Assembly: GCA_963924565.1 (NCBI GenBank)
Contig: OZ004614.1
Span: forward strand, 25,544,001-25,608,000
Length of the DNA: 64,000 nt
Direction: 5' to 3'
Origin: Ascidiella aspersa
Taxonomy: Eukaryota
Shown: piece by piece, positions 1,207 to 29,875 of the stretch
Layout of the letters: the number at the start of each line of letters is the position of its first letter
How positions within the stretch are numbered: position 1 is the first letter of the stretch
Position numbers and translations under genes: made by a program
The notes under the pieces: model-generated
Seen by the model: only the letters and a program-made list of their open reading frames with translations
Databases searched by the model: none
Told to the model about the DNA's origin: nothing

Positions 1207-1232
1207 CACTTAATCGGTGAGCTTGTTTTCAT
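1207..1232 (-). CDS. Candidate alternative first coding exon of the Shroom-like gene (MKTSSPIK + 2 nt)
   Basis: AAAAATG start context, in-frame TAG upstream, TTTCTAG acceptor 19 nt before the ATG, and a consensus TG|GTAAGT donor in phase 2, the same phase as the PDZ exon donor. Very short, so it could be chance. Confidence 0.4.
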
Positions 1233-2689
1233 TTTTACACACTAAATGTTCCTAGAAACTCACATGATAGCTTTTGACCTGGTAAGCCAAACAGAACAAC
1301 AGATAAAATACGTTTTTCGGGGGTCGACTATCAAGCTGTACACAACTTAACCGTGCTGATAGCACTCGTGTGTGTTTTGCAATGACAGCTTAAATATTAA
1401 CAAAGTAATGAAAGAGTTCCGGAGTGGTAAATTACATATAAAGCCCAACTGCTCTGAAACCAGTCAACATATTTCACATTGGTTATTTAACACAATAACC
1501 ACTCTTTTAGACAAAACCGTTTTTTTTTAATGTATTCCAAACAAATATTTCAACTACACCAACTATCAAGTAAGACAAAACTCTATTTTGAAAAGTTACT
1601 TAACGCAATTATTTTAACTATGCCAGCTCTTAAGTAAGACAAAACTATTTCATTTAAATGTATTTAACACACATCTTTTAATTGAACCAAACCTTTTAGT
1701 TTTAAATTAAAAACAGAAATCCGTTCATGAGAGTTTTTGTCTGTTAATAAAAGGCGTTGTCAGTTTTTGCAGACTCTTTCAACTTAGCTATACTAAAATA
1801 CAACCGGTGCCTAAACATTTGCTGCTAATAGCAAACAGCCTTAGTCAGTATGAAAATGCCAACAGTAGGACTACTATGAGTTGCATTGTCGGGTTGTCAT
1901 AAGTTTAGAAGAGGCGTGATACCAAACACAACACCACGCAACTGGCTACTGCAGCTATAGTTTCCTCTAAAAATAACAAACAGAACAAGCTTGGTATGCA
2001 CATGGAAGTCACATTTTGTTCTGATTCAGTTGTTTTTATCTGTGAACACTTCAATTATGAAATTTCGACTTGAAAAAGCTTAAAACACACTTAACTGCAT
2101 CACCATTGCCCGACATACGATTTGATGTGGTTCATTGGTTTATTAAATCAGTTAATATTTTACGGTTCTAATATTGAAACCTTTACGGTAAATTTACATT
2201 AATCCACTAGATTCAGTTACTCAACTCTTTGAATTACATGATAGTTCAAATCACAATTATCTCTGAATAAATCCAAGCAATAAAAAACTCGGATGCTTGA
2301 CTGTACAGTGTGCAGTGTACATTCAATTAAAATGCCCAGCCCACAAAGTTTTAACGAAGTTACGAGCGCGAAAGCAATTCAGACTGAAGAGTTTTCACTG
2401 GTGTGCATTCAAAACAAGCAGAAGCATCATTCTTTGTCTACTTTCGTTAACACTGTCTACATTAATTCACTGACAACATTCCAAATGGCACAGTTCCACG
2501 CATTCCAAAGGCCTGAGAGCAACGAACAAGTGCTTTACTGCGCACTTGGGATTCGAAAACAACGCTTCAGCAAATTGCTAATGATAACAGGTCGCCACTG
2601 CACAGCTGAATTGCACTCCTGGAATACCTTTGCTTAATTATTCATTGCTTGACGTAAGCGGAGAGTGTAGTTTTGCCAACAGCGCACAA

Positions 2690-3180
2690 CTCAGGTTAAA
2701 GCCACGCCAAGTCAGCAATTGCAATGTTTGACAAATGAACCCGATTGACCCTCTCCACCTGTCCTGTGCGCGCGAGGTTTATAACAAAATAAAATAAATG
2801 TGTTTTTATTTTGCAAACACAGGGTACACTGGATACGTAGACCAACGTAAGTATTATATTTTTTTAAAGCAAAAAGAAAAGCAAAAGTTCGATCAACGTC
2901 TGCAAAATTCCAATATCCACAGTTTTTATTATTATTGATTTAGCGACGATTAGGTGGCAGCCTTACTACTGAAGAAAACATTTTGTCACCATATACAACG
3001 AGATACAAACGTTTTTTTAGAAACAACACAACCCGGGTTAAAAACACGCCTAGTCAGCAATTGCAATGTTTGACTGGCGCACTTCGACAAATGAACCCGA
3101 CTGACCAATACACCTGTCGTTTGCGTGTAAGCAAAGGGTAGCATAACAAAATACATTATTTTTAGCGCAAATACCGGATA
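2690..3180. repeat. Local direct duplication of about 130 bp (2690-2830 and 3035-3180)
   Basis: GGTTAAA..ACGCC.AGTCAGCAATTGCAATGTTTGAC..AAATGAACCCGA.TGACC..CACCTGTC occurs in both places. Confidence 0.75.
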
Positions 3181-4637: not shown

Positions 4638-4688
4638 ACACACACGCATACACAAGCACACACACACACATATACATACACACGCACA
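4638..4688. repeat. Imperfect (CA)n microsatellite
   Basis: cacacacacgcatacacaagcacacacacacacatatacatacacacgcac. Confidence 0.85.
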
Positions 4689-7460: not shown

Positions 7461-7981
7461 TAGATTTAGAAAAACAAATTTACCCAAAGACTTGTTTTTT
7501 ATATGTTCCAAGGTAATTAGTTCTCCTTAATTAACAGTATCTTTAAATAAAAATGGGTTGCCAAATTAATTTATCGGAAGTAATCAGAAACCATGCCAAT
7601 TTAGCAAAACTGACATCTTGTTAGGGTAAAAATACTTTACCCTTCCCTTTTTTTTCCAAACGAAAAACTGACCAATTTGAAAAAACGTCCAAAGCCATGG
7701 CATAATTGCATTCACCACGAGATCTAATGCTAATCGCGTCCATAAGGCGCACATTATTTCACCTCACACGACGTTTTTGTTCCATTAAACTTTCCTGGAC
7801 AAAACATCTGGATTTCAGCGAACAACTCGTGGGTAATAGAGCGGAACGGCCTCCTTGGGTTTATGGCGATTTTTGCTCCTTTTGCTTTAAATGCAACGAC
7901 CATGTTTATTCAACATAAAGATAACTTCCATGGGGTCACCCAAACAAAACCTTCAAAAACTTGGTCATAAGACGAACTTAC

Positions 7982-8058
7982 CCGGTGTAGAGGCTGTAAA
8001 TGACCTCGCTTGATCTGCGCATGCGCTGGTTCCTGGGTAGTGTGTAGTAGGTGGACAT
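7982..8058 (-). CDS. Candidate alternative first coding exon of the Shroom-like gene (MSTYYTLPRNQRMRRSSEVIYSLYT + GG)
   Basis: GC-rich open frame from ATG to a consensus GG|GTAAGT donor, 77 nt, phase 2. It carries the TLPR motif also found in the 16552-17270 exon. Confidence 0.55.
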
Positions 8059-11000
8059 TGTCGAGGTCACTTGTAAATTTAACCATCACAAGCACAACAG
8101 CGTTAAGTTAACACACGAACACTTCGTCTTTCGCTAAATGAACGCTTTAGTATTGTGGTATTCCGTCGATTTTTCAGCACCACTTTGACTTAAACTGAAC
8201 GCTAAAACCAAAAACCTAGTTTTTCTAAATTGTATTTTTTCTAGAAAATAGGAATGGCGGGTTAAACTTTCATATAACCCTTGTCAATTACATTTTATAA
8301 TTGATCACTTCAATATTGCGGTATATCCTCAATTTTCCAACAGAAGTTTGTCACGTAATTTTGCCTAAATACCATATAAAAGAAAATATAGGAAATGTAT
8401 CCTTTATCTTTCACCAATACTAACATAAGGTAACTGTTTAGACAGTTAAAAATGCAATAGCAGACAGATCATTTAAAAAACACCTAATCCTACTATTTAC
8501 CATTTCCTTTTCGAAATCCACAAAAACAACTTTAACAGAGCAACAATTAACCTGGCATAATTAATTTTTAGGCGGATTAGTTAACTTCTGCTACAAAACC
8601 AATTGGATAAAAAGCTAAAAGGAGCGCATCCAAAGCCACAAGTAACTCCATGCGAGCAAGACAAGTGAAACGCGAGCAAATGTGCGTCTTGTATAAAGTC
8701 CAAGCACTTCTACGGAATACATGACGCTGTATGGGCAAGAAAGCAATGAGAGAGATGCAAAGAGACATAAAATGGAGGCGGGAGCGGCGCGACAACAATA
8801 GGTGAGACGGATTGTAAAGTTTGCTCAACTTCGCGACTTGAGAAACTTGTTGCTGCTTTTTCGAGACGAAAGTAAATGTTTAACGTACTTTGTGATTCTA
8901 AAGCGATAGGACGGAGGCGTTAAGTCGGGTCTGAACATTAGGTTTGAATAGGATCGCCTTTGTAGGTGTGTGAATGTATTAGAGGTACACGATAATATTG
9001 GATCGGTGCCGATAACCGATACCTAATGGCAGTATCGGTACTCGTCCGATACTTTCGGCTGGTATCGGTGCCAATTAGGTACTGAGATAATTAAGTATTT
9101 TCAGCATGGGAGTATTTTCTAATGATAAAAAAAGAAAAAAAAATACTCCAATAAATAGACAAAAACAATTGTTGTTTAGGGGGCTTTATAACCTAGGAAC
9201 ATTATCTACATTCCGATTTTTTTTAATTTTGCCTTATTAACGATGGTAAATAATATCGTGTTTAATTATTGTCGGAATCAACTGGAATTAAATTAGTCCT
9301 TGCAATTCACGTAAACAAAAACGATTATAACTCGTTCAGTGCACAACAGACAACAGTATATTATTTAGAAAAAATAGACTTGGTTAAACTACCTGGGCAA
9401 CAATTTTTTTTTTTTTTTTTTTACTTTGGGCGAGTTGTTTTTTAAGCATTTACATTTCAAGCAATACTCAGAATTTTTAAAGTACAGATCAAAGTACAAC
9501 CCTAAGCCTTAGTTGTAATATAGTGTAGAATATACACCTTACACACATTAAACAGTAAAAACAAAATTGGTGACAATCGAGTCAAGCAGGCAGCACATTT
9601 TAAAAGCCAATTTCAAGACTTTTTAAATAAAATGTGCAAGTTTTCAAAGACACAAAATTGGGTCTATCAACAGGTTTCGAAATTATTCGAAAACAAAAAA
9701 CTGTAAAAATCATAGTCGGCAGAATAAAAAATGGTTTAAAATGTTGTTTTATACCAGGGCACTTTGAAAACACATAACCTAAGCTACACGTAAAATAAAT
9801 TATAAAACAACATTCACAGACTTTCTGGGAAAAACAATCAAAAACTTTAAAGATCCAAAGAATTTGTGGGGGCAACCTTGTAACATAAACTCAACTGCGA
9901 TCAACAGAAATCAAAAACTGAACTAGCATTTTAGCTCTTAATCTTTCTAAATACAAGCAACATGACTAGCAAATTCAATACGTTAACACAAGAGCGAATG
10001 GCGCGTCCTTACAGACTCGCTGTCTGGGGTTTTGTGTTGTTGTGGGTTAAAAGTAGATACAACGCTCGAACTAACTCAAATTGACCAGACACGCTACAAC
10101 TGGCCACAATAAGCCAGCATTATCCCAAAAATGTCGCAACAAATAGAGCGCGAAGGTAAGTGAGATTCGAAAGTTATTAAAGCTAATCATCGCGTCGATT
10201 TAAAACATTAACCGCGGGTTGGAAATGCGGAACAATCTGATTTATAAACATTGAAAGAGTTTATTCGCTCGGACACCACAGTAGTTCAAATCGACATATA
10301 ATCGCTAACGGATGCAAGCGTAAAAGAGCGATCCGGTCAAAAAGCCTCTCCTGAGCTAACAAGGTAATTTATATTGATTAATAAATAAATCATAGGAATA
10401 ATCGAAAGCTTAAAAAGTAAACTTAATATTAATAACACTTAAACTCAAACACATAAGGAAGAAGCTATTCAACCAGACACCAATAGTCACTTCCTGGCGA
10501 TTTACCCGGCTAACAAAGTATTTTTTAAAGCAATTTTCGAAAAAATTATTGAAATTATGCAAAACTCGATAATTCAAACCTTCACAAATGCTAGCTACTT
10601 TACTATGGGCTTTGATATTCTTACAAAGTAACATTGTAAATATCAATTATAAGATATCATAAAAAACACATACAGTTAGTCTTTCGCGATCTTTCCATGA
10701 TACACTAAAGAAAAGTCAAATTGGCCTAGTGAGAATAATAATAATAATACGTTAATGGGTCGCAACATAGGTTGACCGTCTGTTTGGACCCAAAATCACT
10801 CTACGTATTTTCCTAATAATCATCTTAGCCCGAGTAATGAGTGGCAAATACCGCTTGACAATTATATATAGTAGCACAATCCTTTATTGTAATTTTACCA
10901 ATCATATTCCCTACGTTTGATCGATGTAAGCGTCTTTGCTAGTTGTAAAAATAAGCGTCTTGTTATAAAGTTATGATGCCACCTTGGCATGACAGTTCTC

Positions 11001-11689
11001 TATATTTTCAATACATGAAAAATGTATGAAAAAAACTCTTTTTTTCAAATCGGGATTACTTTTACGACTATAAAGTGAACGTGTATGTATTGCAACAAGC
11101 CAACGATATCTTGTAACATGTGTTTGAGAGCGCATTGGCTAAAGGTTGTATAAAATGTGTAAGAGAGAACAAGAATATTAAATCCCATTATAGTAAAGTC
11201 CTTTAGGAAGATTGGAAGCGTTTTGTGAACGTTTTAAATAAATCTTAAGATCATGGCTGGAGGTTGTAGTTAGATGTAGAATGAATATCAAAGCTCATAC
11301 AGAAGTAGGCAGCATTTTGTTCCAATAATTCTTTATTTATCTTAAACTGAAATGTTGTTTTAAAGTTTTTAAACGTTCACAAAATGCTGATGCTTTCATA
11401 TTCATTCTACGTCTGACACAATTATCTCAATTATGCTGCCCAGTCTAACGGACTTAACCGCCCTTTATATAGCGTGACATTTTACCGCCACCTGTTAAAC
11501 ACGACGCCAACCAGTATGACGTCACAATAGGTAGGCTACGTATTAGGCGCCTAGTATTTGTGTTAGGGCGTTGGTCTTACAAAGTCCCATATTAATTGCA
11601 TAGCAACAAAAGGCGAAGCTGCGTAAATGGGCGTTTTGTGGGACGAACTACGACGAATGCGATGTAGCATTATGATGGTGCATCCTTAA

Positions 11690-11990
11690 GATATTCACCA
11701 AAGATAGAGTTCTCCAAATTAGGTCAATAATACATTCATGCCTCATCTAACACGTATTTAACACTAATCGTAGATTAAACTGAGTATAGAAGGGCGTATC
11801 TCCATGGAATACTTAAACCTATACTGATTCCTTAATTGTGTGACCCTTTTATTAATTTTATTATTATTTTGCTTTGTATATTATGTATGTTACTTTACTT
11901 ATAAGAACTGACGATGCCAGTATAGGCGAAATATATATTCCTTTTTAAAAAAATGTCTGATCCTGATTTTACTCTGGTTTTTAAACTTTG
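11690..11990 (+). mobile_element. Penelope-like element 3' remnant (decayed endonuclease end plus pseudo-LTR)
   Basis: A frameshifted peptide KLSIE/AYLHGILKPIL at about 11777-11827 resembles the GIY-YIG C-terminal motif of Penelope elements. It is followed by an AT-rich tract and a hammerhead motif. Confidence 0.5.
11905..11940 (+). ncRNA. Minimal type I hammerhead ribozyme motif
   Basis: GAA-CTGACGA-T-GCC-agtata-GGC-GAAA-TATA-TA-TTC. Intact CUGANGA and GAAA core, stem II GCC/GGC, stem I GAA/TTC, palindromic ATATAT stem III. Confidence 0.65.
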
Positions 11991-12665
11991 AGTTTTATTG
12001 TTTAAACTGAGTATGTGAGCTCGGTAGATTGGGAAATTTATCCAGGTCCACGGGTGATATTATAACGACATTTTCCACTAATTTTAATGGGTGAGTGTTG
12101 GCAGACGGTAATCTTTCAAAGTAATATAAACATATTTCTATTTTGTTTCTATTGCATATAGCAGAACTTGCAAACAATTTCGCATTTTGATAAAAAAAGT
12201 ATGACCAGGTAATTTAAACACAAGGTTGCCACACAATTATATAAAAAAAATTAAAGGCATTTAAAGACTTGCAGGTTAAAGACCTAAAATTAAACTGACC
12301 AATAATTATTTATTAATATAATTTAAAAACAAAACAGTATACAGTATAAATTCCGTGGTCAACTCAAAAAAAAGTTTTAGTTTTTTAAGGGCTCTTTTTC
12401 TAAATATATATTAAGTTGGACATAAAATAAATTTAAAGACTAATCAAAGACTTTTTGAAAAACGTAGGGTTTTTCAAAGAATGTTTAGCACGTAAATCAG
12501 TTCAAAGAATTATTTTAAAGAATCAAAGACTTTGTAGGAATACTGTGCTACTGCTAGGCCGAGGTAATAGAAACATGCAAAACTGGCAAGGGTATTAACA
12601 TTACGTTTGTGTTTTTTTCACTTTACAGCAGCATCACTGCAATTGCAGACCGGAAAAAAACTTAC

Positions 12666-12769
12666 TGGAAACCCCGGATAACAAACATTTCATCGCCGCG
12701 TGCTAAAGCGTCAAAAACACCAATAAAAAGTGTCAAATACAGACGAGCATACAGGAGTCGAAATGACAT
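12666..12769 (-). CDS. Candidate alternative first coding exon with hydrophobic N-terminus (MSFRLLYARLYLTLFIGVFDALARGDEMFVIRGF + CA)
   Basis: AAAATG start context, 104-nt open frame, CA|GTAAGT donor in phase 2. Confidence 0.35.
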
Positions 12770-14149
12770 TTTGCGAGCATTTCTATCGACACTAGTTATT
12801 GTGCACAGCGCTTGCTTTCCCCGGGAAACTTCACCTTTGGGTTTTCGTTGTTATTCCAGGGCAAATAACTGCCCGACTTGGCACAATAATTCGCCTTTGT
12901 TCGGGGAATTACGTCAGCCGATTGTCTGGAAATGCTTATGAAGGTTAAACACCCACTGTTAGGCCTGTATGGGTGAACAGGTAAAGTAAAGGGGACGAGT
13001 ATGTTTTGCGTAATGAGTATAGGACTATAGGTAGGTGTTGTTTAAACAAAACTTGAACTGAAGGTGGCATTTTTAACGTTTCGAATATATCTTTATTCCT
13101 TTTTTTAATAGTCTAATAGTCTTTTAAAATGCTTCCTATACTTCAGAATAGGTTTTGATATTCTTTCTAAGTCCAACTACAATCTTCAGCAAGAATATGC
13201 TTCGAAGTCTAATGAGCGAGCACAGTACTTAACTTTGGAAAAAAAACGAATTTGGGGCTTAAAACGGGGGCTTAAAACGGGGGCCTAAAACGACAAAAAT
13301 TTGGGGCCTAAAACGACAAATTATGCCAGTCTGCTCGACACTGTATACATTTTATATTTATTCATAATTCAGGTAAAACCTCTGACAATCACACTTAAAG
13401 CACATACAGGAATGACCTAAAAATTACCTTAAATAAAGCAAGCACGATGGTGACATAACATCGACATGCGAGGGCGACATACTTAGTGTGGTTTAACCAA
13501 CAAAAACGAGGTGTATAGGAATACAATAGAAGCAGTTTTTGAATGTACTTGAGCGTCTACAATGCCTGATGCGCCCACCCACGATTAATGTGGGGTTTCG
13601 CTGTGATGAGAGGGCGGTCCACCAGTTGGTACGTTTTGTGTGGCGCATAAGATTAATAAAGGGAACGAATATACTACATACTTCTCTAAGGTTGTGTAGC
13701 ACGGGACACACATCACAAATACCATACGAAGCTAGTTTCAGGAAATCGTAAATAGCTTGGGTAGACTATGCACGGATCTGTAAAGAAGCTTGAAAATGAG
13801 TGTTAGAGCCAATTAGTAGTAAAATGTGATTAACTTATTATGATGATTTTTTCGACCTAATTTCCTTTAACATTCATTTCTAAAAGGCATAAATTTGCAA
13901 CCACGGCTAGAACAATAAAACAGGCAAAATATCTCCAGTTACTGGAGCCCAACACAAATAAGTTGTTGCACATAAGGCGCCGTTAAATGTTCGAACTCCC
14001 AACGATAAACCAGCTTGTCAAAAGGTTGCTTGCGTCAAAATTAATGGCAGAGTTCCGCTCATAAAACACCACAAGTGTAATAAATTAAATACATACCAAG
14101 CTCAGGCCGAGAACTTGCATTTAAAGCAACTTTAACTTTAACTGAACTC

Positions 14150-15800: not shown

Positions 15801-15814
15801 CTTTTTTATAAATG

Positions 15815-16551: not shown

Positions 16552-17270
16552 CTTTCGTCAGATTTCAAATCGTCTTCTTCGTCGGAGAACCTCAAGTAAT
16601 CCTTAGCATCTCGCATCCCAGCAAACCTGGATTCAAAACACGGTACAGAACTCCCATTCCTAACCCTGGAAAGTCGGATCTTGACTCGCATATCGAGAAC
16701 AAACAGCTCATTATCCTCATTTTCCGGCGAATCCTCTTTATCACGACTTCTAGGAAGTGTACGCGACTTAAACTGTTTCTTAGATCCACTTGGCTCAACT
16801 TTCTGCTCCTCTAGGGGCCTTAGGGCGCCGGGTAAGGCCCCAGTTGTTCTTCTCAGGGGTGTAGGGGCCAGTGGGATGGGAGGGGAGCTGTAGGAACGGA
16901 GCCGGGGTCGCAACGGGGATTCCCCAGGCTCAAAGATCCGTCTTAGCTTTGCGAGGCGACTTTCTTTCGGTTCGCCGTTATCTGATTTCTTCAGCGGTAA
17001 AATACTTTTCTCTGAGCTTAGGCTTGACAAAGAGCGACCGCGCAGCAGTTTGGCCTTTATGCTGGCCAAGTTTGGGCTTCGTACGCCTATTCTGGGCCCG
17101 GTCGCCTGCTCCGGGGATCGAACCAGCAACCCTCGGTTCCGCGCGTCCACAAAGCTCGATGAGTTGGTGAGACGACGGCGCGAGCTAAAAATGGAGTTGC
17201 ACGTGTCCGCGGAACTGCGGAGATCCTCGCGGAAACGCTCTCGAGCGCCAGCTCGCGGTAAAGTGGCCAT
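16552..17270 (-). CDS. Large Ser/Arg/Pro-rich coding exon (239 aa + 2 nt), probable alternative PDZ-less first exon of the Shroom-like gene
   Basis: Longest ORF in the window and clearly GC-rich against its flanks. An in-frame TAG lies upstream at 17322-17324. The ORF's stop lies inside an AAAG|GTAACT donor in phase 2. Confidence 0.75.
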
Positions 17271-18169
17271 GGACTTCTTTGTGTCGGAATTTTTTTTGTT
17301 GTTTATTGTTGATACAACTCCCTATTGCTATGCAGATTTTTAAAATAAGTCAATCTCTTGGAGAAAATCAGAACAAAAAATTAAATTGAGCAGAATACAC
17401 TTTGATAAAAGAACATAACAAATGCCACAAAACAATATTAAATCCCCGCAAACATATAACATCTGTGTTTCTTCTCATATTATACACATGCTTGCATAGG
17501 AAGATGGCATGATGCAAGGCTCATGACACGGTATACGCTATGGGTAGAAACACAAGCGTCAGTTCTCAAAAAATATTTGATGGCCTATCTTACACAATAC
17601 ACATATTTGGCGTCTCTAACCTGTGACCACGATTTTCAACTATAACTGTAGAGTGCGTGAATGTATTTACATCCGGTATAACGATATAGAAGCTACAATT
17701 AATATGCTTTGAGTAACTTGACAAGATGGCCGAAACCATTTCAGCTGTCCCTGTGTCACTACTTTCTGGCTATCTTTTTCATAGTTATTTTTTTTAACCT
17801 TTCATTAAAAATCTCGTCGTTCCTGCTCACACTGCTTTTACAGTCACGTTAAAGCCACAATTATTGCGACCACAACAAATCGCAGCACAACAAAGCTATA
17901 GCTCGGCAGTCGAGATGCTTATTACAAATCAGGTATTACGTAAGGCTTTTGTCGTATAAGGGCCTGTCTTTGACGACCGAGGGATCGTAATTGACAAATA
18001 ATTAGTTTTATCTGATATTAGCACAAAATAGAAATAATTAAGATATTCTGCTTTACGAAGAAAGAAGGCGTACTTTCAGGGGTAACACTAAGCAAGAAAG
18101 TTGAAATAAGTTATCAATTTTGGTAAGTAACATTTTTATTACTTTCTTAATACCTCCAAAAACCCAACG

Positions 18170-18360
18170 ACTAACACGAAGCCCATATCAATTAGAAATG
18201 ACGTAATAAGAATAACAAAGCCCACACACAAGTAGGTATCATTTTGAACGTTCCGAATTACTCTTTGTTTTCAACATTGAAACGTTCAAATTGCTACCTA
18301 CTTCTGTATGGGCTTTAATATTTGTATTACGTCTTACTACAACCTCCTGCTATTAGGCTC
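18170..18360. repeat. Dispersed palindromic repeat family (AAAGCCCATACAGAAGTAGGTAGCATTTTGAACGTT / GGCTGGAGGTTGTAGTTAGACGTAG)
   Basis: Hairpin here between 18217-18252 and 18281-18316. Related copies at about 10520-10650, 11180-11420, 13020-13200, 20655-20790, 35095-35190, 39030-39210, 60570-60870 and 63720-64000. Confidence 0.8.
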
Positions 18361-21300
18361 CAAAATTAAAAATAAGTTTTGCTAGTTTAAGTAATAAAAA
18401 CGACTAGAAAATCCGAAATTTATGTTGGGCTCATGATTTTGCAGACATTTAAATTCAGGTGGCTTTAGGTTAGTTACTAGTTAAAAAGCAAACAAACTTT
18501 AAAAATTCCATTAAAAAATTAGATTTTATCAAATGAAACCAAAACTAGATGTTTTAAAGCACGAGCAACGTCATAAAATTTTTAGAGTCAACGTTATTGC
18601 TTTTAAGATGACGAAATGTCATCAACGTGCTACACAAACTATTACCAACAAATTACTAGAATGCCGAAACTCGCATCACGATTAGCCTTGATTAATTTTC
18701 GCATTGTTCGGGTTAAGGCAATTTGTTTAGTGTTTTGGTTTTACGTCGATAAACAACGCACACGCACACGCGTAATAAGCACAAGCCTAAAGACCAAAAA
18801 CAGCAATTACAGACAACAGGGCTAGGCACGCCCGGTATTGGCCAATCCGAAAATGATGTCATGGATTTGATCTGAGTGTAGCCACATATAGGAAAAGCGG
18901 AATGTAGTGAGCTACATTTGGAAGTATTGGCTTCTTTAGGAAAAACACAAATGACACAAATGAAGCGCTATTTTACAATGGAAGAGATTGGTCGTAAAGC
19001 TGCAATCAATTTCGCTTTTATAATGCGCCATAACAAAAAAACATTAGCCCAGATAGGAAAAGTCACATTGGAATTGATCTAGGGGTGTTCAAGTTTTAAA
19101 GTTAAAAAGACCATTTTCTTACCCAGCAGCAGAGTTTTAAAATACAATAACGACCACTTTTCATCAGTTTCTGATCAAGATATGAAAAAAACAGTTTTAC
19201 CAACGTAAATACAACAGTTACGTCATCGACAATTAACTAAGCTTTTAAGTTATAACTGGTTTAAACATTTATCCATTTGTATGTCTTCGCACATTTGGAG
19301 AAAACAGGTAAATCCAGAACGCGTACAGCAATCAGTGAGGCTACTTTCATTAAAAATCGACCTCCAAGACAATATTTTATCTGTTATCGTCAATAAACAG
19401 ATTAACAACACTTTGCAAAGCCAAGGCTGTCAAACCCCAAATAAGGTCAATAAAAGTTACCTGAAAATACCCAAATGCTAATTAAAATACTGAAGCTGGT
19501 TTAGATCATCTTATCAAAGAAGCGTCCTTACATTAAAATAACCGCCTACTTTCACGTATCTGCCAGGTAAGCCTTTAATTAACAACGTCTGTAAGCTACC
19601 AGGAATCACAGCGCCAATTGAAATGGAAAGACATGCTTGTATAGGAAGATGGCATGCTGCAAGGCTCATGACCCGGTATATGCTGTGTGTAGAAGCACAA
19701 GCGTCAGCGCTAATTAGCACCACACATGCGTATTTCTCAGCCTACGCACTTCCTAAAAAAACAATGCCAACTCGATACATCACCTTTCAATCACATACCG
19801 ATAACCGATATTTTAGACAAAAGGTATCGCGACTCGATCTTATAACTATGACGTCATTACTAAGCCTAAAACAAAATGAATCAACTAGATTTTAAAGATA
19901 GTTTTCCAGGTTATTTGCCAAAATTCGCTTTAACGTGAAGAAGTTTCATTCCAATCAGTTGTTAACCTTTTATTTTTTGATGTATTTACCTTTAACGGTA
20001 TATGCTGTGTGTGGAAAAACACCCGTCAGCGCTAATTAGCACAACACACTTTCAACCTACGCGCTTCCTACTTTAAATGACCGTATGACGGTCGTGGCAC
20101 ATGCCAGGGCGGTTTTGTAAAGGGGGTCGCGTTTTGCAGGGGTAAAAACGGGTGTACTCTCTATATCTGCAACTGCTTTCTTTTCTTGGCCTTACTTCTA
20201 TAACAGACGCTTAAAAATATAGATGTTTTATAGGTTTCAACTTGTTTACCAGCTACTGATGCTTTACCCCCTTTTTGCATATTTTTTTCGTGCCATTGAA
20301 ACCGAATATATATACTACATTTATAGGTCAACGAAATAAAAAAGGCCTTTATCTAAAGGGACTATATAAGCTGGGCAAAAACTCTAAAAACACAATGACA
20401 ACTAAGCAGAATTTGTAAATGTTGGCTGATTTGCAAAATTGTGTCTTGTGGTATAATTTGTCACTACACGTTTTTTGTTGGTATGCTGCGTATTTATAAA
20501 CGCGCCTGTCGCGACTTTTCAGTCACATGCTTGAACTCATTTCGCTGCATTGCGACTGTCAATGGTTCGCCTTGAAAACATGTATTACAGCGTTATTTCA
20601 TGTCCATTGTAAACTTGAAAAAAAGTACACAAACTTGTAAATTTTGGAGCTAATGACTGGCGGTCGTAGTAAAATGTAGTAAGAATATCAAAGTCCATGC
20701 AGAAGTAGATATCATTTTAAAAGTTTCGAATATGCCTATTCAAAATGATACCTACTTCTATATGGGCTTTGATATTCTTACAAAGTTATAAAATGTTTTG
20801 ATAAAACAACCGCATACCGCATTAAAATCGCTGTTGTATTGTTATTAAAAATAAGGAACCATCATTGTATGAGAGCGTATCGCCTATCTGCATAATGTTT
20901 GTATTTAAGTGAGCGTTAAAAGCTCAGAGTGCTATTCACATTTGAATACGGTGATGTACCTAATCTTATTGTAAACCACCAATGACTGGTTACCGTTAGA
21001 CAAAATAGAAATGAAAATACAACTCGGTATGACTTTATAAACATTCTAACATGCCCACAAATGTGCATATTATGGTTGACCTTAATAAGCTTTCATATTC
21101 TCAACACTGTCCTTGGATTTTTTTTAAATGAAAAACTTTACAATATTGTTCTAAACAAAGTGCTAAAACATTCAGAGAACGGGGTTTCTTGGAACTGTCT
21201 ACCAGAATAGCAAAAGAATCACATTCGAAAAAATTGACCTTCTTTTAAGAGAACTAATGGTTTGAAATTCTTAGTAATACTGGTAAAGTTGTTACGGTCA

Positions 21301-21705
21301 TATCGTATAATATCTCTCTGTTAACAAACCGACTCGTCGATTGGAAGCATATTTGTCAAGTAAACTGCATACCTGTAACTTTTTTCGCTTAAGGTAGACT
21401 GAATGTGACACAATACATGCCTCAACAACAACTCAAAACGCAATAACATTCGACATGATTGACATGCCCCCAAAAATAGGCTATGCTATGTGTTAGATTT
21501 AGTGCTTAAAACTGCTATGTGTTAGATTTAGTGCTTAAAACTCATTTTAAACGCTAACCAGTCCACAGGGCTATTCCGAAATTGTGTGCACACAAAAAGG
21601 CACAAATAACAACTGCAGCGTAGTTAAATTCGTCAGTCGATCACCAAGGTCCGGTCTGATTTAATTATGGACAGCAGCCATACGGAAGTTAAGTAGTAAG
21701 CTCAC

Positions 21706-21773
21706 GCACACCGAGGACGGCTATAGAGTGGTCTGGTGACTGTACGCAAGCCATTCAGGTGCAGGTTCGCCAT
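21706..21773 (-). CDS. Weak candidate alternative first coding exon (MANLHLNGLRTVTRPLYSRPRC + GC)
   Basis: GC-rich island, 68-nt open frame, GC|GTGAGC donor in phase 2. CCAAT (about 21827-21835) and GGGCGG (about 21909-21914) lie upstream. Confidence 0.3.
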
Positions 21774-22964
21774 GCAGGCATACCGCTACACAGGAGATGA
21801 ATTGCTTTGACGGGGAGGGCTTGTATTGGCCAATACGGAAGCTGTGGGCAGACGGCGAAGGCCTTAAACGGTAAATTGCTTGCCAAGCTAGTTAGGAAAC
21901 AATTGCATAGGGCGGAGTGGGGATTCGATTTAAAAGTTGCACACGCTAGTTAATAGTTTCGTGGCTGGTTTAATTGAGTTTACCTCTATTTTTTGCCAGG
22001 CCTTTATTTTTTTGTTTCGTAGATTTTTCGATTTTTAGCAGCCTAATTTTTTTAGGTTTCTGGCATATTCAAAGTTAGGCATTTTATGAGATAAAAATAA
22101 AAATATATTTTGTCTAAACTGCCATTATCAGCCTTTCGAAAAATATAAAACAAATTCAAACATAAAAACTGGTTGGTAACAATCCAGTAAAAAAGTGAAA
22201 ATTGCAGCAGAACTAAAAGCAACATCAATGGGAATGAGTAAATTTGATAAAATTCAAAATAAAATAAAAAAGTCAACACGCGAAAAGCTAGAAGACGATT
22301 GTGATTTAAATCGTCCTAACTCGACTTGGAATATACATTTTACACGTGCTATAGTTTTCGCAACAACCGCGCATAACCTCAAATTACCCAGCACCTGTGG
22401 CCAATTTATTTTTTAGGGTGGGGCGTGGGTCATATGGGGGCAACAAAGGTAGATTGGATTCGGTGAATTAACCCTATAGAATCGGTAATCCACAAATTGA
22501 GGTGTGGAGCAATGAAGTGCTTCAAACAAAGCTGAAGGGAAATTGGTGTTCTCTCTTTTTATTGGCAGAACCACAACAATGTCAATATATTTTATTTATT
22601 TAGGTCAGTGATTGCTAACCTATATTAACCGCGTAAAACCTGATTCTTAAAGAAGCTGTTTGTCCCAAACGTATGTTACTTATGTTAGACAAAAAAAATC
22701 GCGATCTGATCAGATACTAATAAGTCTAATGACGCCAATACTAAGCTCAAACTAAGTAGAATAAATTAAAACGTTCAAATACTTTTTGGTTATTAGGCAC
22801 AAAATTCGCTTTAGCGTGAATACGTTTAAATAAACATCAGTTGTTAATCTACTATAATAATTTGATGAATTACATTTTAAGGTAGAGATTGCTGCATTAG
22901 GTGACAAGTCATGGTTCAAATATTTACATTAATTTAGTATAGGATCAGCACTGATACAACCCTA

Positions 22965-23310
22965 GTATCGGACGAGTACCGATATTACCACTTGGTATTG
23001 GGTAATGGGTATCGTCTCCGATCCGATATTATCGGACGTGTACCGATACTACCACTTAGCATCGTGTATCGGCTCCGATATTATCGGACGAGTACCGATA
23101 CTACCACTTAGCATCGTGTATCGGCTCCGATATTATCGGACAAGTACCGATACTACCACTTGGCATCGTGTATCGGCTCCGATCCTTTATTATCGGACGA
23201 GTACCAGTTCTACCACTTGGCATCGGGTATCGGCTCCGATCCGATATTATCGGACGAGTACCAGTTCTACCACTTGGAATCGGGTATCGGCTCCGATCCG
23301 ATATTATCAA
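22965..23310. repeat. Tandem array of 41-47 bp units derived from a hAT-MITE subterminal repeat
   Basis: About six copies of TATCGGACGAGTACCGATACTACCACTT(A/G)GCATCG(T/G)GTATCGGCTCCGAT. The same motif occurs at 8990-9075, 31705-31800 and inside the MITE at 63016-63439. Confidence 0.9.
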
Positions 23311-24396
23311 CATCCATACTTATGTCTATGAAATTTAAAAAACAACTAAATAAAAATTGCTTCCAGCGTTTAGACAAATATTTTGTATTACCAACTGGAT
23401 TAATGTGACAAACGTATCTACATATTATTACACTTGTGCTACATATATTTACACTTGTCTTTTTAAAAACCTTAGCTTGCGATAACTGACAGCAGCATTT
23501 TTGCAAATTCCAAGCGTCCAAAATCCTGAAAAAGTTTCGAAACGACCTGTTCAATGACGTCACAATGCAATGCATCGTTCAAATTTCGGGATGTCCAACG
23601 CACGTTTCTGCACGAATCGAAACGCGGCGGTCACGAAACGCCATTGTGACGCGATAATGGCTTAGGAAAGAAAAAAACACCAAGGACAATTTAAAGTCAA
23701 AAAGTGGCGTAAATGTCATGTACCTCAAAATGACCTTTGCATTGAACAATTCATTGACGGACAAACACTGTATCTTTTTTAGCAAAACCAAAACAAAATC
23801 GTGAAACCGAATTTGCTTCACGAGGCAACATATCAGTAATTAGAAATCGATCTTTGGTGCATCTAAAGACGTTTCTAAGGCGAACATAACGTCCGTATAC
23901 GTAAACTCATACGCAGGTTTCCATTCCTACCATACACGGCACACGTTTTAGCTACCAATGCATGCACTTTTGTCGTAAACTGCATACGAAGTTACGTGCA
24001 TATACTTGTACGTATAGTCTGTAAACTATCAAATTTGAAAAACACTTCCTGACTTCACAATAACATCCGGCTTTAGAAGTTGTATATACCTACAAGTCTA
24101 TACGTAGACAGGTTACACATGTAAACGCTTTACACAGATCATTAAATACAAAAAAAAGCTTCTTTATATATAAATACCCAAACTAAATAATTTTTACACT
24201 TGTGTATTACTCGCCCTTCTAAAAGCCGTATTGTCTAACTGTACAACACACATCGATCACATCGATAATACTTCGGGTGCCTTCGGCAAGGCTTAACGAG
24301 CTTACACAGACGTAAGCAGACTGCGGTAAATGCCAACTTTCCACCTTTGCTCGCTGCATCATCAGTCACAACCCTTGCCTTGAGTCTTTCGTTAAA

Positions 24397-24655
24397 TCGT
24401 GACAGTTTCGGTAATCGTGACAGTTTCAGTGATCGTGACATTTTCAGTGATCGTGCCAGTTTCGGGAATAGTTACAGACAGTTATTGGAATCGTAACACT
24501 TTCAGTAATGGAGACAGTTTATAGTAATCGTTACAGATTAAGTGATCGCAAAAGTTTCAGTGATCGTGACAGTTTTAGTGATCGCACAAGTTTCAGTGAT
24601 CGTGACAGTTTCAGTGATCGTGACAGTTTCAGTGACCGTGACAGTTTCAGTGATC
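24397..24655. repeat. 18-bp minisatellite (CAGTTTCAGTGATCGTGA)n
   Basis: About 14 imperfect units. It explains the spurious SFSDRD-repeat ORF. Confidence 0.9.
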
Positions 24656-25129
24656 CAGACAAAGAAAGGAATACTCAAGCCATAGACAAGACACTTTAAC
24701 GAGAAAATGTAAGGGTTTGGCTAAACTTAGTGCATCCAAACCTTATTTGGCTGACATCACCCCATAAACGAATCAAGAGCAGTTTGCGACAACCTTACTA
24801 GCATTTTCGCTCAGTGGTTAACTGTGATGTCACAATGTAAAAAAAAATATGCAAAAATATGCACGTTTTTGATATATTGTACTATAATGAAACACAAAAA
24901 AAGTTTCAAGATTGTCACCAATAGACCAAAAACTTGAAATTAAAAGGAAATTGAAATATCTCGCGGCACCTCTCAAGAGTCATCAGATGACTTTCTACAA
25001 GGTAACAAAATCTTGCTTCAACTAGTTCTACGATTTCCAGGCATACAGAAGAATCTTTAAAAACTTCGCAGCTTTTTTAGATGTATTTTCGCGCAATGAG
25101 TTAAAAAAGGCGGAAAAAGAAAGAAAGAA

Positions 25130-25530
25130 AAAAACGACATCAAAAAAGATACGCCATTTCTTGGTATGCTTATCCAAGCTTTGGCTTCGTTACTTGCAAC
25201 GTAAGGACGTGTTCATAAAGATCTTTAATATCGGTAACCTCGTTTTCATTTTCGCATCTATAGATATAAAATCGAGTACATAAGAGCACACAGTTTACCA
25301 GTTCGTTTTTTAAACGCGGTCCACTGACACCAAACAGTAGGTCAGCTGGTAAAAATGTAACATTTATGCGAAGTCAAACGGTAAACATCGTTACAGAATG
25401 AGTAAATAACGGGGCAAGATAGGAACATATGCTGCAAAATCTCGGGCGAGTTGTTACAAAAACAAGATTCACACGAATAACACGATTCTAGGATTTCAAA
25501 GACATATAATTGCACGTTTGTCATTATGCT
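25130..25530 (-). mobile_element. 3' end of an L1/Tx1-type non-LTR retrotransposon ORF2 (decayed)
   Basis: Translation CFCNNSPEILQHMFLSCPVIYSFCNDV resembles the zf-RVT CxxC..H..C motif. It continues as DLLFGV..ELVNCVLLCTRFYIYRC and ..KLDKHTKKWRIFF, typical of a Tx1/L1 C-terminus, with frameshifts. Confidence 0.75.
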
Positions 25531-26673
25531 TCTCTTTATAAGTTTTGTTGTTGTTGTTGTTTTTTTATTCACCAAACTAATAGAGAGTAAGAAAAAGTAA
25601 ATAAAGTAGGTAAAGGGTTGTGGCTCGATTCTTTCTTGGCCAACTAGGGTCCACCACGGAGGTAGGGTCCGAGTTAAAACTGCGCAGTCCTCTGACAACC
25701 TATCTCCACTAGGGAGCAGGTGCCGCTATAGACGAACGCTAAAGCTTTTACGCGAAAAGATGTTTTTTTCGCACGTTACACTATTAGGCTAACGTCCTAA
25801 TGACACCTAGCGGAAATATGTGATTGCAGCAAAAATATTTTTTATGTTGTTCCTGAAAAACTTTTGTTACTCGCTGATGGTGTCACGACAAAAGGTTTTC
25901 TTCCGTCATAAGAATGCCACCTGATTGTCATTGTATCAATAAAACTATATTTAGAAAAAACGTTATTGGCCACCAACCACGATAAAAGGTTAAGTGCCAT
26001 GTCGACGTTCTAGGAGACGCATCTTTTGTTTACATACTTACATAGAATATGGTGTGTGTTATGTTAAAGCAGGTAGATTTGAACAGGAATTTTTGTTTGT
26101 TTTTTGTGTTGAAAGTGTGTAGTTTGAACTGCCGAAAAACTTATCAAAGAAAGTTTCTCAAAAAATAACAAAAATAAACAAGATATGTACCGAAAATAAA
26201 TTTTCGGCCCATATAAATATTGACACAAAATCGCAGGTTCATCAACATTCTAATAATGTTGATGACATAGGTTTTATGTAGAAGAATGTCTCTTACATCA
26301 TTGGAAAGGTTTTGGTTCTGCCAATCAGAATAAATATACTTTCCTTGGACTTTTCAATGGCAATTCTTACAAGCAAGTCCTAATACAAAGTATTTTGATT
26401 ACTTAAATTGAAGGATTTCAATCCCAATTCCCCGAGTAAGGAATTTTTAAGGCATTCAATCGAAGAACTATTAACTCATAGCTACTACAAAGATCCTATT
26501 TTGTTTCCCTTTTAACAAACAAAGTATAATTTTTTTTTGTCTAAAATCGGAATTGAGAACACAGTAAAAATTGGAACACAGTAAAAATTCCAAAGCCCAT
26601 ATGTAGGAGAAGAACGGTAGCATTTTACATGAATCTCTTAATGCATTCTGAACATCATTGAGTTGCAACTAAC

Positions 26674-29600
26674 CTTTCTACTTCCAGTTGTAGAGTGTGT
26701 CCGGACTGTTTGACGAACTGAATGGCTTCAGTGCGAAGACCACTGAGCTGAACGTGGTTTATTCCGTACACAACATCACCAATGAACAACCCACCACTCT
26801 CTGCTTTGCCACCTTTTTCAAGCTGGAGAATAATGAAAACATTGAAATGCTGGGTTTAAACCAGTGGTTCTCAAAGTAGGGCCTGGTAAAATGTTGATGG
26901 GGCATGCATGTTATTAAGTGATGTAGCGACACTTTTAGAGGCGTTATGTTTGCCTTTTTCCTATTTTTCTTGTGCCTTTTTATATCCGGTTCTAGTGTGT
27001 TCTTTTTGATTCGGCGCACCTGGAATAAAGACTTACCCTCGCCTTATTAAAAACCAAAAGTAGTTAAATAACTTGGCAACAGACAAAAAAATAGACTGGA
27101 TCTCTTAAATCTTATTAATAAAAAATAGAATTCAAGGATCACAAACAATATACCAAGTGAGCAAATAAACTACTCACTATCAAACAATTTAACTGCAATG
27201 TAAATGTCATAAAAGTAGGAACAATGATTTGTACAACTTTATAATGGAATGATTTTTACCATCGAAAGTAAATGCTTTTGGAAAGGAATAAAAATAGATA
27301 AAACTATTGCAGGTAAATTTAAACAATCAAACATACATGTGAAATTTGGCTTACACATTTAGTTTTCCTAATATGGTTAAAGTGCTGTGGATTTTAACAC
27401 ACAATATGTGATGCCGATAATCACAAATTTTTTTAAAACATCAAGAAAAAACAAAACTTTGTTTAAGATATTTAAGTTGTGCATATTCAAATATGCTACA
27501 AGCAGCACGATTTAATCATTCACAAGGCATAAATTTTGCAATATTTATATACAATACTACAATATCCTACTAGATGGGATCACCAACATTTAAATCCAAT
27601 CAAAATGTAAAAGAGTGCCTTAGGCATAAGACTCATTTCAACAGACATCAACATTCTTTGCTGTGCCAGCCAGTGTTAATACCTTCAATGTCTGGCATGG
27701 TTTGTGTAACATCAAACAGACGTTTCCAATATAATTTACTTAAGAGTTGGTGCTTTTATTGCAAGTGCATTTAAATATCCTTTTGAACTATGGATATTGA
27801 ACTATTTAGTAAAAATATTTCCAAAAGTCAATGCTATAGTTTACAACTCACTTCATAACAGGTATCACAAATAATTTTGTTGAAAAAAATTGTTTTTTGA
27901 TGCAAAATCAAATTAAATAAACTATTGGACAGTTCCCAAAACACTAATTGTTATTTTGTAACCATTAGCATTAAGGCAATGCATTTTTAAACTGTAAAAG
28001 GCTGTTAACTGTAATCTAAAACGAATATAATAATTGTTCACATTTTTACCTTTAACAGAAAGCTTTAAATCCAACACACATAAAAATATTTAAATACAGT
28101 AAAACTATGTTGCTCAAGAAAAACAAATTTTGAAGAACTAAAAAGTTTATAAATATATGCTTATTATAGTTATCCAGAAACCAACTTTTGTTCTGGGTTT
28201 GTATATTATTCACTACATTGTTATTTCCTGATATATATATATAGGAAGCTATCATAGTCATATTCAAACTCTAAGCAGGAAACAATTCAGTTTGAATAAG
28301 CAATCTCAAAGAAAAGGCTTTAACAGCAATACTCACTGGTTTAAAGCAACCTTTTAAAATACCACACTGCTTTATTTTTACAGCGAAGCTATTTCCAACA
28401 ACTAGTAGTACCAAGTATGATTAATCTTACATACCTATATATAATATATAAAACAACAGTCTCTTAGTCTCTTAAAATGTTTTAGCAGCGACCAAAGCTC
28501 AACCTTTACATGTAAAACCTAATAGAGCAAACCATATAGAAATGTATTTTCAGTAACATTTAGTGTTATTCAATTTCTTACAACTGTCCTAATAATTGTT
28601 ATTATTGTCACAAATATTCCAGGTATTCATCACTATGTTTTTTGGTAGTAGTGAAGCTGCATTCTTTATTTTCTAAAGGGCATTAATATATATGTTACTT
28701 GGCGATACAATCAAATAGAGATTGTATTGCATTTTAAGTGTACATGTGTGGACTTATTAAGAGCTTTTAAAACCTGGTAAGCTAATAGGGATTAGTGGTT
28801 AGCCCTTTTAGAAGCAGACCAAAGTGTAACAAGAGAAAATACCAGGTTATATAAGACAAGCAATGCTCTACACTGCTTTTGTGTATACAACGAAATACCA
28901 AATTTATATCTTTTCTAAAACTAAAAACTCTGACTAAATTGTAGTATTGAAAATAGATAGGTAAATAGAAACACCTCTCACAAAAAATGCACATATTTTC
29001 TAGCAATAACAAGTTCATTTGTGTATTCATTACATTGTAATGGTGTATTTACATTTAGTTATATCAACAAATTATTTTTTTATTCTGAATTGTTAAATTA
29101 CAAAACGTTTAAATTGTTGTATTATTTATGCAAAACATTAACAATGACTCTTTATAAAACACAAACTTACAATTTTTACAAACCATATTTGGCCAAAATA
29201 AAATTTATACATATAAGTTTGTTTTTTAATGTTTCTACTATTACAAAACTTTTTTTAAGTGCAACATGTGTTGTAAAAAAATATATATTTGGCAAAATAA
29301 ACAGAAACACAAATGCCAGAAAAAGAGCAGTTTTTTTGCTGCAATAAAAAAATATATGTCTGGATTTTATTAACTGCAGAAATTTGACATCAATTTTTTT
29401 GTAAATTGCTTTTATGGACCCAACAATCGCAGAGGCTTTAATATATCCCCACTAAATCAATTAAAAGTTTCTTTAAACACTGTTTACCAAACATAGGGGA
29501 ACCAAACTTGTAATATTTTTACTTAGAATTAATAATAAAAATATTTTACAATAGTTAGCAGAAAAGTAATGAAAAACATTTTATATTTCTGTGATTTTTT

Positions 29601-29875
29601 GGTAAATAAGTATTTAATGGTGATTTAGAAAAGTATAGACAACACAAATCTTCTTAAAAAACAAAACACAAACCTTCTTTGGGGCTTTTATGAATTGTTG
29701 CAAAGTTTAATCCAGTGTTCAAATAATTTCACACATTAATTACACCAAAGCATGCAAGTAGAAATACCTTTGAAACCACAAGTGGCTTGTTGTTTTCTTT
29801 TCCACCTTTGATAGAAAAACCCCAAGGTCTTCCACCTTCCAGCCGAACTTCAATTCTTTCGCGTCTTGAACTCAT
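26674..29875 (-). CDS. SHROOM: Shroom-family protein, N-terminal PDZ domain; coding exons 29768-29875 and 26674-26822; gene continues left of the window
   Basis: Spliced peptide MSSRRERIEVRLEGGRPWGFSIKGGKENNKPLVVSK|LEKGGKAESGGLFIGDVVYGINHVQLSGLRTEAIQFVKQSGHTLQLEVE(R) matches the Shroom2/3/4 PDZ pattern (GGxPWGF..KGG..PLV..K; LSGxRxEAIxxVKxSxxTLxLxVxR). GT-AG sites are canonical and an in-frame stop precedes the ATG. ASD domains are not in the window. Confidence 0.82.

What the first reader, a model, noticed from the sequence alone, without database searches (positions are those of the whole stretch)
1207..29875. Shroom-like gene with a cassette of alternative N-termini that all end in intron phase 2
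Seen: the PDZ exon ends AG|GT in phase 2. Downstream on the same strand lie ATG-initiated frames that also end at phase-2 donors: 21706-21773 (GC|), 16552-17270 (AG|), 12666-12769 (CA|), 7982-8058 (GG|) and 1207-1232 (TG|). Three of these have consensus GTAAGT donors. Known: vertebrate Shroom3 has PDZ-containing and PDZ-less isoforms. Inference: up to six promoters splice onto one common exon left of the window, in a variable-first-exon arrangement. The short candidates could individually be chance. Prediction: the common exon cannot begin with A if the TG| exon is real.
Basis: partly seen in the sequence, partly recalled or inferred. Interest (0 to 1): 0.72.

Follow-up and report, generated by a model that had tools for sequence, protein, structure and literature searches.

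The report
Sea-squirt Shroom with alternative N-termini
This is the 5' end of a sea-squirt Shroom gene (a cell-shape regulator) whose large second intron holds a 239-residue coding exon with its own start codon, conserved in a second sea squirt, that likely replaces the PDZ domain with a predicted actin-filament-binding segment, much as internal start sites give PDZ-less SHROOM3 in humans; the four shorter proposed first exons are unproven.

Summary
All five ATG frames and their phase-2 donors are in the sequence as described. The PDZ exons belong to an ascidian Shroom: 80-86% identical to Phallusia 'Shroom2-like', 58-80% to Ciona Shroom with ASD1 and ASD2.

One candidate is a real coding exon. 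The 239-codon frame 17270-16552 has an orthologue 9.4 kb behind PDZ exon 2 in a second ascidian (L001). It starts at the same Met, is 40% identical over 160 columns, shows mostly third-position changes, and both copies keep a match to the published actin-filament motif VxxLxxxFE.

The short candidates have only modest statistical support; 21706 has no counterpart in L001. No junction to a common exon was seen, and the RNA run had no reads over most of the long exon.

The run instead joins PDZ exon 2 to an unlisted exon at 25257 (7 reads). It lies in a likely retrotransposon remnant and stops after 113 residues, giving a PDZ-only product.

Internal starts giving PDZ-less Shroom are known (human SHROOM3, mouse ShroomS, one Ciona RefSeq isoform). 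This is a new member of that kind: two coding starts well supported, six not shown.

The parts
29768..29875 (-). Shroom PDZ coding exon 1 (36 codons, phase-0 donor)
   Evidence: 86% identical to P0002 and 80% to Ciona Shroom P0036; best PDB hit Shroom4 PDZ, E=3e-7; orthologue L001:5033-5140
26674..26822 (-). Shroom PDZ exon 2 (149 nt, phase 0 in, phase 2 out)
   Evidence: Pfam PDZ E=5e-6; 80% to P0002; 149 nt and phase 2 also in L001; donor used by 7 RNA reads
25173..25257 (-). Exon not in the finding: acceptor at 25257, 27 codons, then TAA; gives a 113-residue PDZ-only product. Its 3' end is not mapped (about 25050 if depth is even)
   Evidence: Joint 25257-26674, CT..AC, 7 reads from 6 start places; translation; length
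25140..25725 (-). Likely frameshifted 3' remnant of a non-LTR retrotransposon that supplies the 25257 acceptor
   Evidence: Pfam zf-RVT E=0.0054, 17.8 bits, below the curated cut-off of 27.5; Atlas 0.93 to unnamed eukaryotic clusters; no match in L001; the likeness to LINE ORF2 C-termini is recalled
21706..21773 (-). Candidate first exon, 22 codons, GTGAGC donor; weak
   Evidence: GC 57%, reached by 1.7% of equal windows; out-of-frame ATG 8 nt upstream; no counterpart in L001:8400-17850
16552..17270 (-). Conserved alternative first coding exon, 239 codons plus 2 nt, donor AAG|GTAACT
   Evidence: Orthologue L001:17851-18396, 64 of 160 identical, E=3e-14; identity 66/65/29% at codon positions 1/2/3; 9404 and 9451 nt behind PDZ exon 2
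16929..16955 (-). Match to the short actin-filament-binding motif V/L/I-x-x-L-x-x-x-F-E (residues 106-114)
   Evidence: Same motif at the aligned place in L001:18130-18156; shuffle frequency 1.5% and 0.6%; predicted helix 102-113 in a low-confidence model; motif from PMC13364712
17357..17374 (-). Acceptor-like AG with a pyrimidine tract 86 nt upstream of the ATG; possible trans-splice or leader-exon acceptor
   Evidence: A similar site lies 61 nt upstream of the ATG in L001; such sites are common, so this is a lead
12666..12769 (-). Candidate first exon, 34 codons, GTAAGT donor; uncertain
   Evidence: A at -3; GC 42%, not unusual; hydrophobic peptide and out-of-frame ATG 11 nt upstream; beyond the end of L001
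7982..8058 (-). Candidate first exon, 25 codons, GTAAGT donor; the best of the short ones
   Evidence: A at -3; GC 55%, reached by 2.6% of equal windows; an upstream ATG at 8086 reads open to the same donor in phase 0; no RNA depth
1207..1232 (-). Candidate first exon, 8 codons, G|GTAAGT donor; too short to judge
   Evidence: A at -3; GC ordinary; outside the stretch on which reads were laid

Best explanation
This is the 5' end of an ascidian Shroom gene with two coding starts, the PDZ exons and a conserved 239-codon exon in intron 2, which likely splices onto the shared Shroom exons left of the window and would replace the PDZ domain with a disordered, Arg/Ser-rich segment carrying a predicted actin-filament-binding helix.

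Shown: the exon is coding, starts at its own Met and is conserved in position. Inferred: it has its own promoter (or trans-splice acceptor), and its phase-2 donor joins the exon that normally follows PDZ exon 2. The extra motif would add one actin anchor to those in the shared body, and so change where Shroom recruits Rho-kinase and myosin II.

One or two of the short exons (7982 first) may be further starts. Separately, PDZ-promoter transcripts can be captured by a likely retrotransposon-derived acceptor at 25257, giving a PDZ-only product.
For: Gene identity; PMC1481537 reports a PDZ plus ASD2 Shroom in Ciona.

Conserved exon: it is the best blastn match between L001 and the window outside the two PDZ exons (E=0.007; all other rows 0.08 or above) and it aligns in frame by tblastx. 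Met aligns with Met, with an in-frame stop 17 codons upstream in the window and 6 in L001. Local score 188 against a shuffle maximum of 79 in 1000. 42 of 64 identical residues use a different codon. The donor phase equals that of PDZ exon 2.

Precedent: Ciona RefSeq isoform X6 (P0040) has 29 unique N-terminal residues and no PDZ. Human SHROOM3 TSS2/3 give exons 3-11 without the PDZ (PMC10722951).

Motif; PMC13364712. CpG observed/expected is 0.29 and 0.35 in intron 1 against 1.03 and 0.88 in intron 2 in the two species, which fits an unmethylated regulatory intron (inferred).
Against: No junction from 16552 was seen. The RNA run had zero depth in bin 16756-17409, where about 36 reads would be expected at the depth of PDZ exon 2, so the form is absent or rare in that library. 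L001 ends before the donor, so its phase there is unknown.

None of the 8 Ciona, 1 C. savignyi and 1 Phallusia proteins in hand carries this N-terminus. The Ciona alternative start joins one segment later, skipping about 100 post-PDZ residues.

The actin motif is a pattern match only. I noticed it by eye before finding the paper, and P1 is Leu, an accepted substitution for Val.
Confidence: 0.75

Rival explanations
1. One reading: six promoters, each with a coding first exon, splice onto one common exon.
For: 3 of 5 GTAAGT sites close phase-2 frames with A at -3, against 0 of 28 controls. 21706 and 7982 are GC-rich. Bins holding 21706 and 12666 have traces of gene-strand reads (144 and 65 bases), which cannot be placed on the exons.
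Against: 21706 has no counterpart in L001. Three of the four short candidates have an out-of-frame upstream ATG within 28 nt. Without the Kozak filter the simulation gives P=0.057. No junction from these donors is among the 15 of 37 joints shown.
Confidence: 0.12
2. The 239-codon exon is the first exon of a separate same-strand gene nested in Shroom intron 2.
For: No junction to Shroom was seen. The peptide has no similarity to any Shroom in hand, no Pfam hit and no Atlas hit above 0.85.
Against: Its donor phase matches PDZ exon 2. L001 and the window share no other alignable coding segment in intron 2 over the stretch compared. An actin-type motif suits a Shroom N-terminus.
Confidence: 0.1
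3. There are fewer promoters than exons: the long exon, and perhaps 21706, is entered through a 3' acceptor, by spliced-leader trans-splicing or from a non-coding leader exon. It is then a first coding exon but not the transcription start.
For: Acceptor-like sites lie 86 nt (window) and 61 nt (L001) before the ATG, and 12 nt before the 21706 ATG. About half of Ciona genes are trans-spliced (PMC4691747).
Against: Such sites are frequent in T-rich DNA. Splicing PDZ exon 2 onto the 17356 site stops after two codons, so it is not an internal coding exon. This rival changes the promoter count, not the proteins.
Confidence: 0.3
4. In this species the PDZ promoter mostly makes a PDZ-only transcript through the exon at 25257, so ASD-containing Shroom comes mainly from the internal starts.
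For: 7 junction reads to 25257, against 5-7 expected in total across the donor at the exon's depth. All depth in bin 24604-25257 is gene-strand.
Against: One library, about 6% of it read. Reads leaving to exons outside the laid stretch appear only as loose ends, of which 6 of 317 were shown. The estimate assumes even depth. Ciona has a full-length PDZ+ASD1+ASD2 model (P0036).
Confidence: 0.25

Closest known systems
Human SHROOM3 alternative transcription starts (TSS1 long with PDZ; TSS2/TSS3 short, exons 3-11) and mouse Shroom3a/3b (ShroomL/ShroomS)
   Same: [quoted passage not shown]
   Different: The human short form is shorter than the long form (1808 against 1986 residues). Here the internal start would add 239 new residues with an actin-type motif. 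The human SHROOM3 motifs lie at 781-789 and 1054-1062, in the shared body.
Ciona intestinalis Shroom (XP_078494982.1; RefSeq Shroom3 isoforms X1-X6)
   Same: Orthologous PDZ; isoform X6 has a unique short N-terminus and lacks the PDZ.
   Different: X6 joins after the roughly 100-residue post-PDZ segment, whereas the window's candidates lie before it. The X6 peptide is not similar to any candidate (shuffle p 0.27-0.78).
Plectin variable first exons
   Same: Several first exons with short coding parts splice onto a common exon (a dozen in plectin; PMC8468861 passages).
   Different: Shown experimentally for plectin; here only two starts are well supported. The candidates are unrelated to each other, unlike the duplicated variable exons of protocadherin or UGT1 clusters (PMC1885805, search listing only).
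[quoted passage not shown]
   Same: L-x-x-L-x-x-x-F-E in a disordered setting, conserved in both ascidians.
   Different: Binding is untested here. The motif sits in an isoform-specific exon.

Membership tests
Shroom family | N-terminal PDZ of Shroom type | tested here: met
   Exon 1 best PDB hit Shroom4 PDZ. Exon 2 alone does not single out Shroom4 (E=0.27). The 80-86% identical P0002 hits Shroom4 at 8e-16, next 2.8e-12. Ciona P0036 with this PDZ has ASD1 and ASD2.
Shroom family | C-terminal ASD2 (the family's common denominator, PMC1481537) | not testable with these tools
   Not in the window; no genome held. Present in the Ciona orthologue.
Shroom family | ASD1 actin-binding region | not testable with these tools
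   Outside the window; present in the Ciona orthologue.
Variable-first-exon arrangement | Several coding first exons ending in the same phase | tested here: met
   5 of 5 candidates and PDZ exon 2 end in phase 2. Coding status is shown only for the PDZ exons and 16552-17270.
Variable-first-exon arrangement | All splice to one common acceptor | tested here: inconclusive
   Only 26674 to 25257 was seen; 15 of 37 joints and 6 of 317 loose ends were shown; 1207 was not in the laid stretch.
Variable-first-exon arrangement | A separate promoter for each first exon | not testable with these tools
   No start clusters were reported in the run (table 6); CAGE or 5' RACE is needed.
SFM actin-binding motif | Hydrophobic P1, Leu P4, Phe P8, Glu P9 | tested here: met
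   in both species.
SFM actin-binding motif | Helix within a disordered region | tested here: inconclusive
   Helix 102-113 predicted, but mean pLDDT is 48.8 from a single sequence.
SFM actin-binding motif | Micromolar F-actin binding that depends on P1/P8 | not testable with these tools
   Needs co-sedimentation or cell imaging.
PDLIM/ZASP or syntrophin PDZ proteins (considered) | PDZ closer to these than to Shroom | tested here: not met
   Shroom4 ranks first for exon 1 and for P0002; the Ciona orthologue shows ASD domains and no LIM hit.
Non-LTR retrotransposon remnant (25140-25725) | zf-RVT / ORF2 C-terminal region | tested here: inconclusive
   E=0.0054, below the curated cut-off; the nearest named Atlas cluster is zf-RVT at 0.76.

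The most novel reading that the evidence does not exclude
Ascidian Shroom has a promoter-selected N-terminal switch with four or more settings: PDZ, a conserved 239-residue segment with its own actin-filament-binding helix, and short peptides. These would target one Rho-kinase-recruiting core to different actin structures by tissue or stage, while a retrotransposon-derived exon turns the PDZ promoter's output into a PDZ-only product.
Probability: 0.2. Interest if true: 0.6.

Novelty: new member of a known kind. Interest (0 to 1): 0.38.

Why it matters
Shroom drives apical constriction, and ascidians are a tractable chordate model for neural tube closure. A conserved isoform that swaps the PDZ for an actin-anchoring segment gives a direct test of how the N-terminus sets Shroom's location, by promoter-reporter electroporation and point mutation of one motif. 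It also means gene models of ascidian Shroom are probably incomplete, and that probes or guides against the PDZ exons would miss the PDZ-less forms. Alternative promoters in Shroom are already well known, so the surprise is moderate. In Ciona only about 4.5% (115 of 2581) of genes with mapped starts had two or more promoters (PMC4691747).

Tried and rejected
No genome is held for the window, so the next exons could not be read.

Word-based homologue searches with the long exon and PDZ exon 2 were blank. This is weak evidence: one search also missed P0002, which is 80% identical and in the collection. A metagenome scan with the long exon found nothing, although L001 holds an orthologue. The PDZ exon 2 scan found 1 locus among 591 stretches and stopped at 49 of 64 parts. 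The last 1078 nt of the L001 contig could not be obtained.

Exact look-ups of 5 translations found none. The Atlas gave nothing above 0.85 for the long exon. No RNA holder was listed; X3 was offered by species label.

Earlier-finding look-ups gave nothing relevant.

A search for an internal phase-2 exon like the post-PDZ segments of Phallusia or Ciona found no convincing match in 1-26674 (best local score 38, in a tandem repeat). So the idea that exon 3 lies in the window was dropped, though a very diverged copy could be missed. The long exon as exon 3 was rejected: it has no similarity to those segments, and its conserved Met has an upstream in-frame stop.

Paper searches: shroom+alternative promoter+isoform+PDZ gave 0; shroom+tunicate+isoform 0; shroom+alternative first exon 2, one read and about human SHROOM3; shroom+Ciona 26, 20 listed, none on isoforms by title. 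The supplements of PMC4691747 had no 'shroom' in 5 files; file 1 was not searched and genes may be listed by KH id only. Most subscription papers are not in the library.
Full report
OBSERVATION. The minus strand carries a two-exon PDZ domain at 29875-29768 (phase 0) and 26822-26674 (phase 2). All five downstream ATG frames are open and end in phase 2 as described. Three donors are GTAAGT, one GTGAGC and one GTAACT. The 239-codon frame is far beyond chance: 0 of 300 local Markov simulations reached it. The short frames are only modestly enriched. 3 of 5 GTAAGT sites close a phase-2 ATG frame of at least 8 codons, against 1 of 28 controls, or 9 of 84 over all phases. The simulation gives P=0.057, or 0.003 with A at -3 (which skipped 800 nt per stretch). 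The length limit was chosen after the fact.

GENE IDENTITY. A search of 1.84 billion representative proteins with exon 2 returned 34 hits. The ten with 49-80% identity include Phallusia mammillata 'Shroom2-like' (P0002, 80%), a Clavelina protein and Ciona savignyi H2ZIS8; the other seven are unnamed. P0002's best PDB match is the Shroom4 PDZ (8e-16). The C. savignyi protein led to Ciona intestinalis XP_078494982.1 (P0036), with PDZ, ASD1 and ASD2, 80% and 58% identical to the two window exons. The window is therefore most likely an ascidian Shroom 5' end. Exon 2 alone does not discriminate among PDZ domains, and ASD1/ASD2 could not be checked in this genome. Nothing like the post-PDZ sequence of the relatives is in the window, so intron 2 probably runs past the left edge (over 26.6 kb).

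THE LONG EXON IS REAL. A metagenome scan gave one locus, L001, from another ascidian. Its PDZ exon 2 has the same length and phase as the window's. Outside the two PDZ exons the best blastn match to the window is the start of the long exon (E=0.007), which also aligns in frame by tblastx. The L001 frame begins 9451 nt after PDZ exon 2 (window: 9404) on the same strand, Met on Met, and stays open for 182 codons to the end of the locus. Identity is 64 of 160 columns, E=3e-14. Over 127 aligned codons, identity is 66/65/29% at positions 1/2/3, and 42 of 64 identical residues changed codon: the pattern of purifying selection on protein. In-frame stops lie 17 and 6 codons upstream, so it is a first coding exon. 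The donor is not covered in L001. In both species intron 1 is CpG-depleted (0.29, 0.35) and intron 2 is not (1.03, 0.88). I read this, from recalled knowledge of mosaic methylation in ascidians, as an unmethylated regulatory intron.

THE SHORT EXONS. L001 covers the interval where a 21706 orthologue would lie and shows none (115 phase-2 ATG frames compared, best score 22); short peptides can diverge, so this counts against it without excluding it. 12666, 7982 and 1207 lie beyond L001. 7982 has the best signals (GTAAGT, A at -3, GC in the top 2.6%), but an upstream ATG reads to the same donor in phase 0. 12666 encodes a hydrophobic peptide with an out-of-frame ATG 11 nt upstream. 1207 is too short to judge. 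My rough odds: 7982 0.55, 12666 0.4, 1207 0.35, 21706 0.25.

RNA. One raw RNA run of the same species label (about 6% read) was laid on 7600-27200; most of the 2848 laid reads were partial matches to repeats. One canonical intron appears among the 15 of 37 joints shown: 26674 to 25257, 7 reads from 6 start places, all in one orientation. That exon adds 27 codons and a stop, giving a 113-residue PDZ-only product. It lies in a likely retrotransposon remnant (zf-RVT E=0.0054, below cut-off) that L001 lacks. Seven reads is about what should cross the donor in total (5-7), so this may be the main fate of PDZ transcripts in that sample. Reads going to exons outside the stretch would be hidden among loose ends, of which 6 of 317 were shown. 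Whether the exon is terminal or a stop-containing cassette is open. Depth was zero over most of the long exon and over 7982, so those forms are absent or rare in this library. The bins with 21706 and 12666 held 144 and 65 bases that cannot be placed.

MECHANISM. The long exon is Arg/Ser-rich (34 each of 239) and predicted mostly disordered (pLDDT 48.8). Residues 106-114 match the actin-filament motif VxxLxxxFE of PMC13364712 with Leu at P1, a substitution its matrix accepts. The match is kept at the aligned place in L001 and arises in 1.5% and 0.6% of shuffles. Ciona Shroom has two looser matches in its shared body, and human SHROOM3 has motifs at 781 and 1054. The likely scheme: promoter choice selects either the PDZ or a segment with an extra actin anchor, in front of the same ASD1/ASD2 core that recruits Rho-kinase. 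Drosophila offers a parallel: ShroomB keeps SD2 but lacks the actin-binding part (PMC7875558 passage). Splicing to the core, the promoter and actin binding are all inferred.

COMPARISON. Human SHROOM3 has three starts; two give exons 3-11 without the PDZ (PMC10722951). One review calls it among the best-characterised alternative starts (PMC12790856). Ciona RefSeq isoform X6 has 29 unique N-terminal residues, but joins about 100 residues later than the window's candidates would; the other five numbered isoforms (X1-X5) start inside the PDZ. The arrangement is thus a new member of a known kind. The long exon was in none of the proteins I retrieved, and four paper searches found no description of ascidian Shroom isoforms; the library lacks most subscription journals.

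PAPERS SEEN. PMC1481537: whole text. PMC13364712: abstract, passages, section 11 and supplement rows (file 1 not readable). PMC10722951, PMC7875558, PMC3839891, PMC4691747, PMC12790856, PMC8468861: passages; for PMC4691747 also a blank search of 5 supplement files, one not searched. PMC1885805: search listing. Prokop 2018 and Bolinger 2010: not read, known only through these reviews.

VERDICT. Observation partly confirmed; interpretation partly supported. Two coding starts are well supported, one unlisted PDZ-only exon is shown by reads, and a six-way cassette is not shown. Interest 0.38.

Noticed in passing
window 41881-44521 (-) and 59092-62197 (+): Two divergently oriented paralogous multi-exon genes, 38-43% identical in three segments, with signal-peptide-like N-termini and coiled-coil-like bodies; no Pfam hit above cut-off for the two exons tested.
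   Followed up: partly
window 45712-55756: A 10-kb inverted repeat (arms 90-96% identical) with a 192-bp tandem array (6.2 copies, 50123-51312) at its centre, between the two paralogues; possibly a foldback-type element.
   Followed up: no
window 15911-15979 (-): The only Rfam match in the window: tRNA model, 35.1 bits. Its bin has divergent reads in both orientations, so it is probably a tRNA-derived repeat.
   Followed up: no
window 17264, 16760 and 8043 (-): The tetrapeptide TLPR occurs three times on the minus strand, each time in the reading frame of a candidate exon (two in the long exon, one in 7982); once on the plus strand. Noticed by eye first, so not a fair test; L001 has TPPR at the first site.
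   Followed up: partly
P0002 (Phallusia), C-terminus: The 221-residue protein ends just where Ciona isoform X6 joins the common sequence; it may be a partial record or a short PDZ-containing form.
   Followed up: no
window 23009-23308 and 24396-24655: Tandem arrays (period 52-57, about 5 copies; period 18, 14 copies) in intron 2; the first has dispersed copies near 9000, 31750 and 63050.
   Followed up: no
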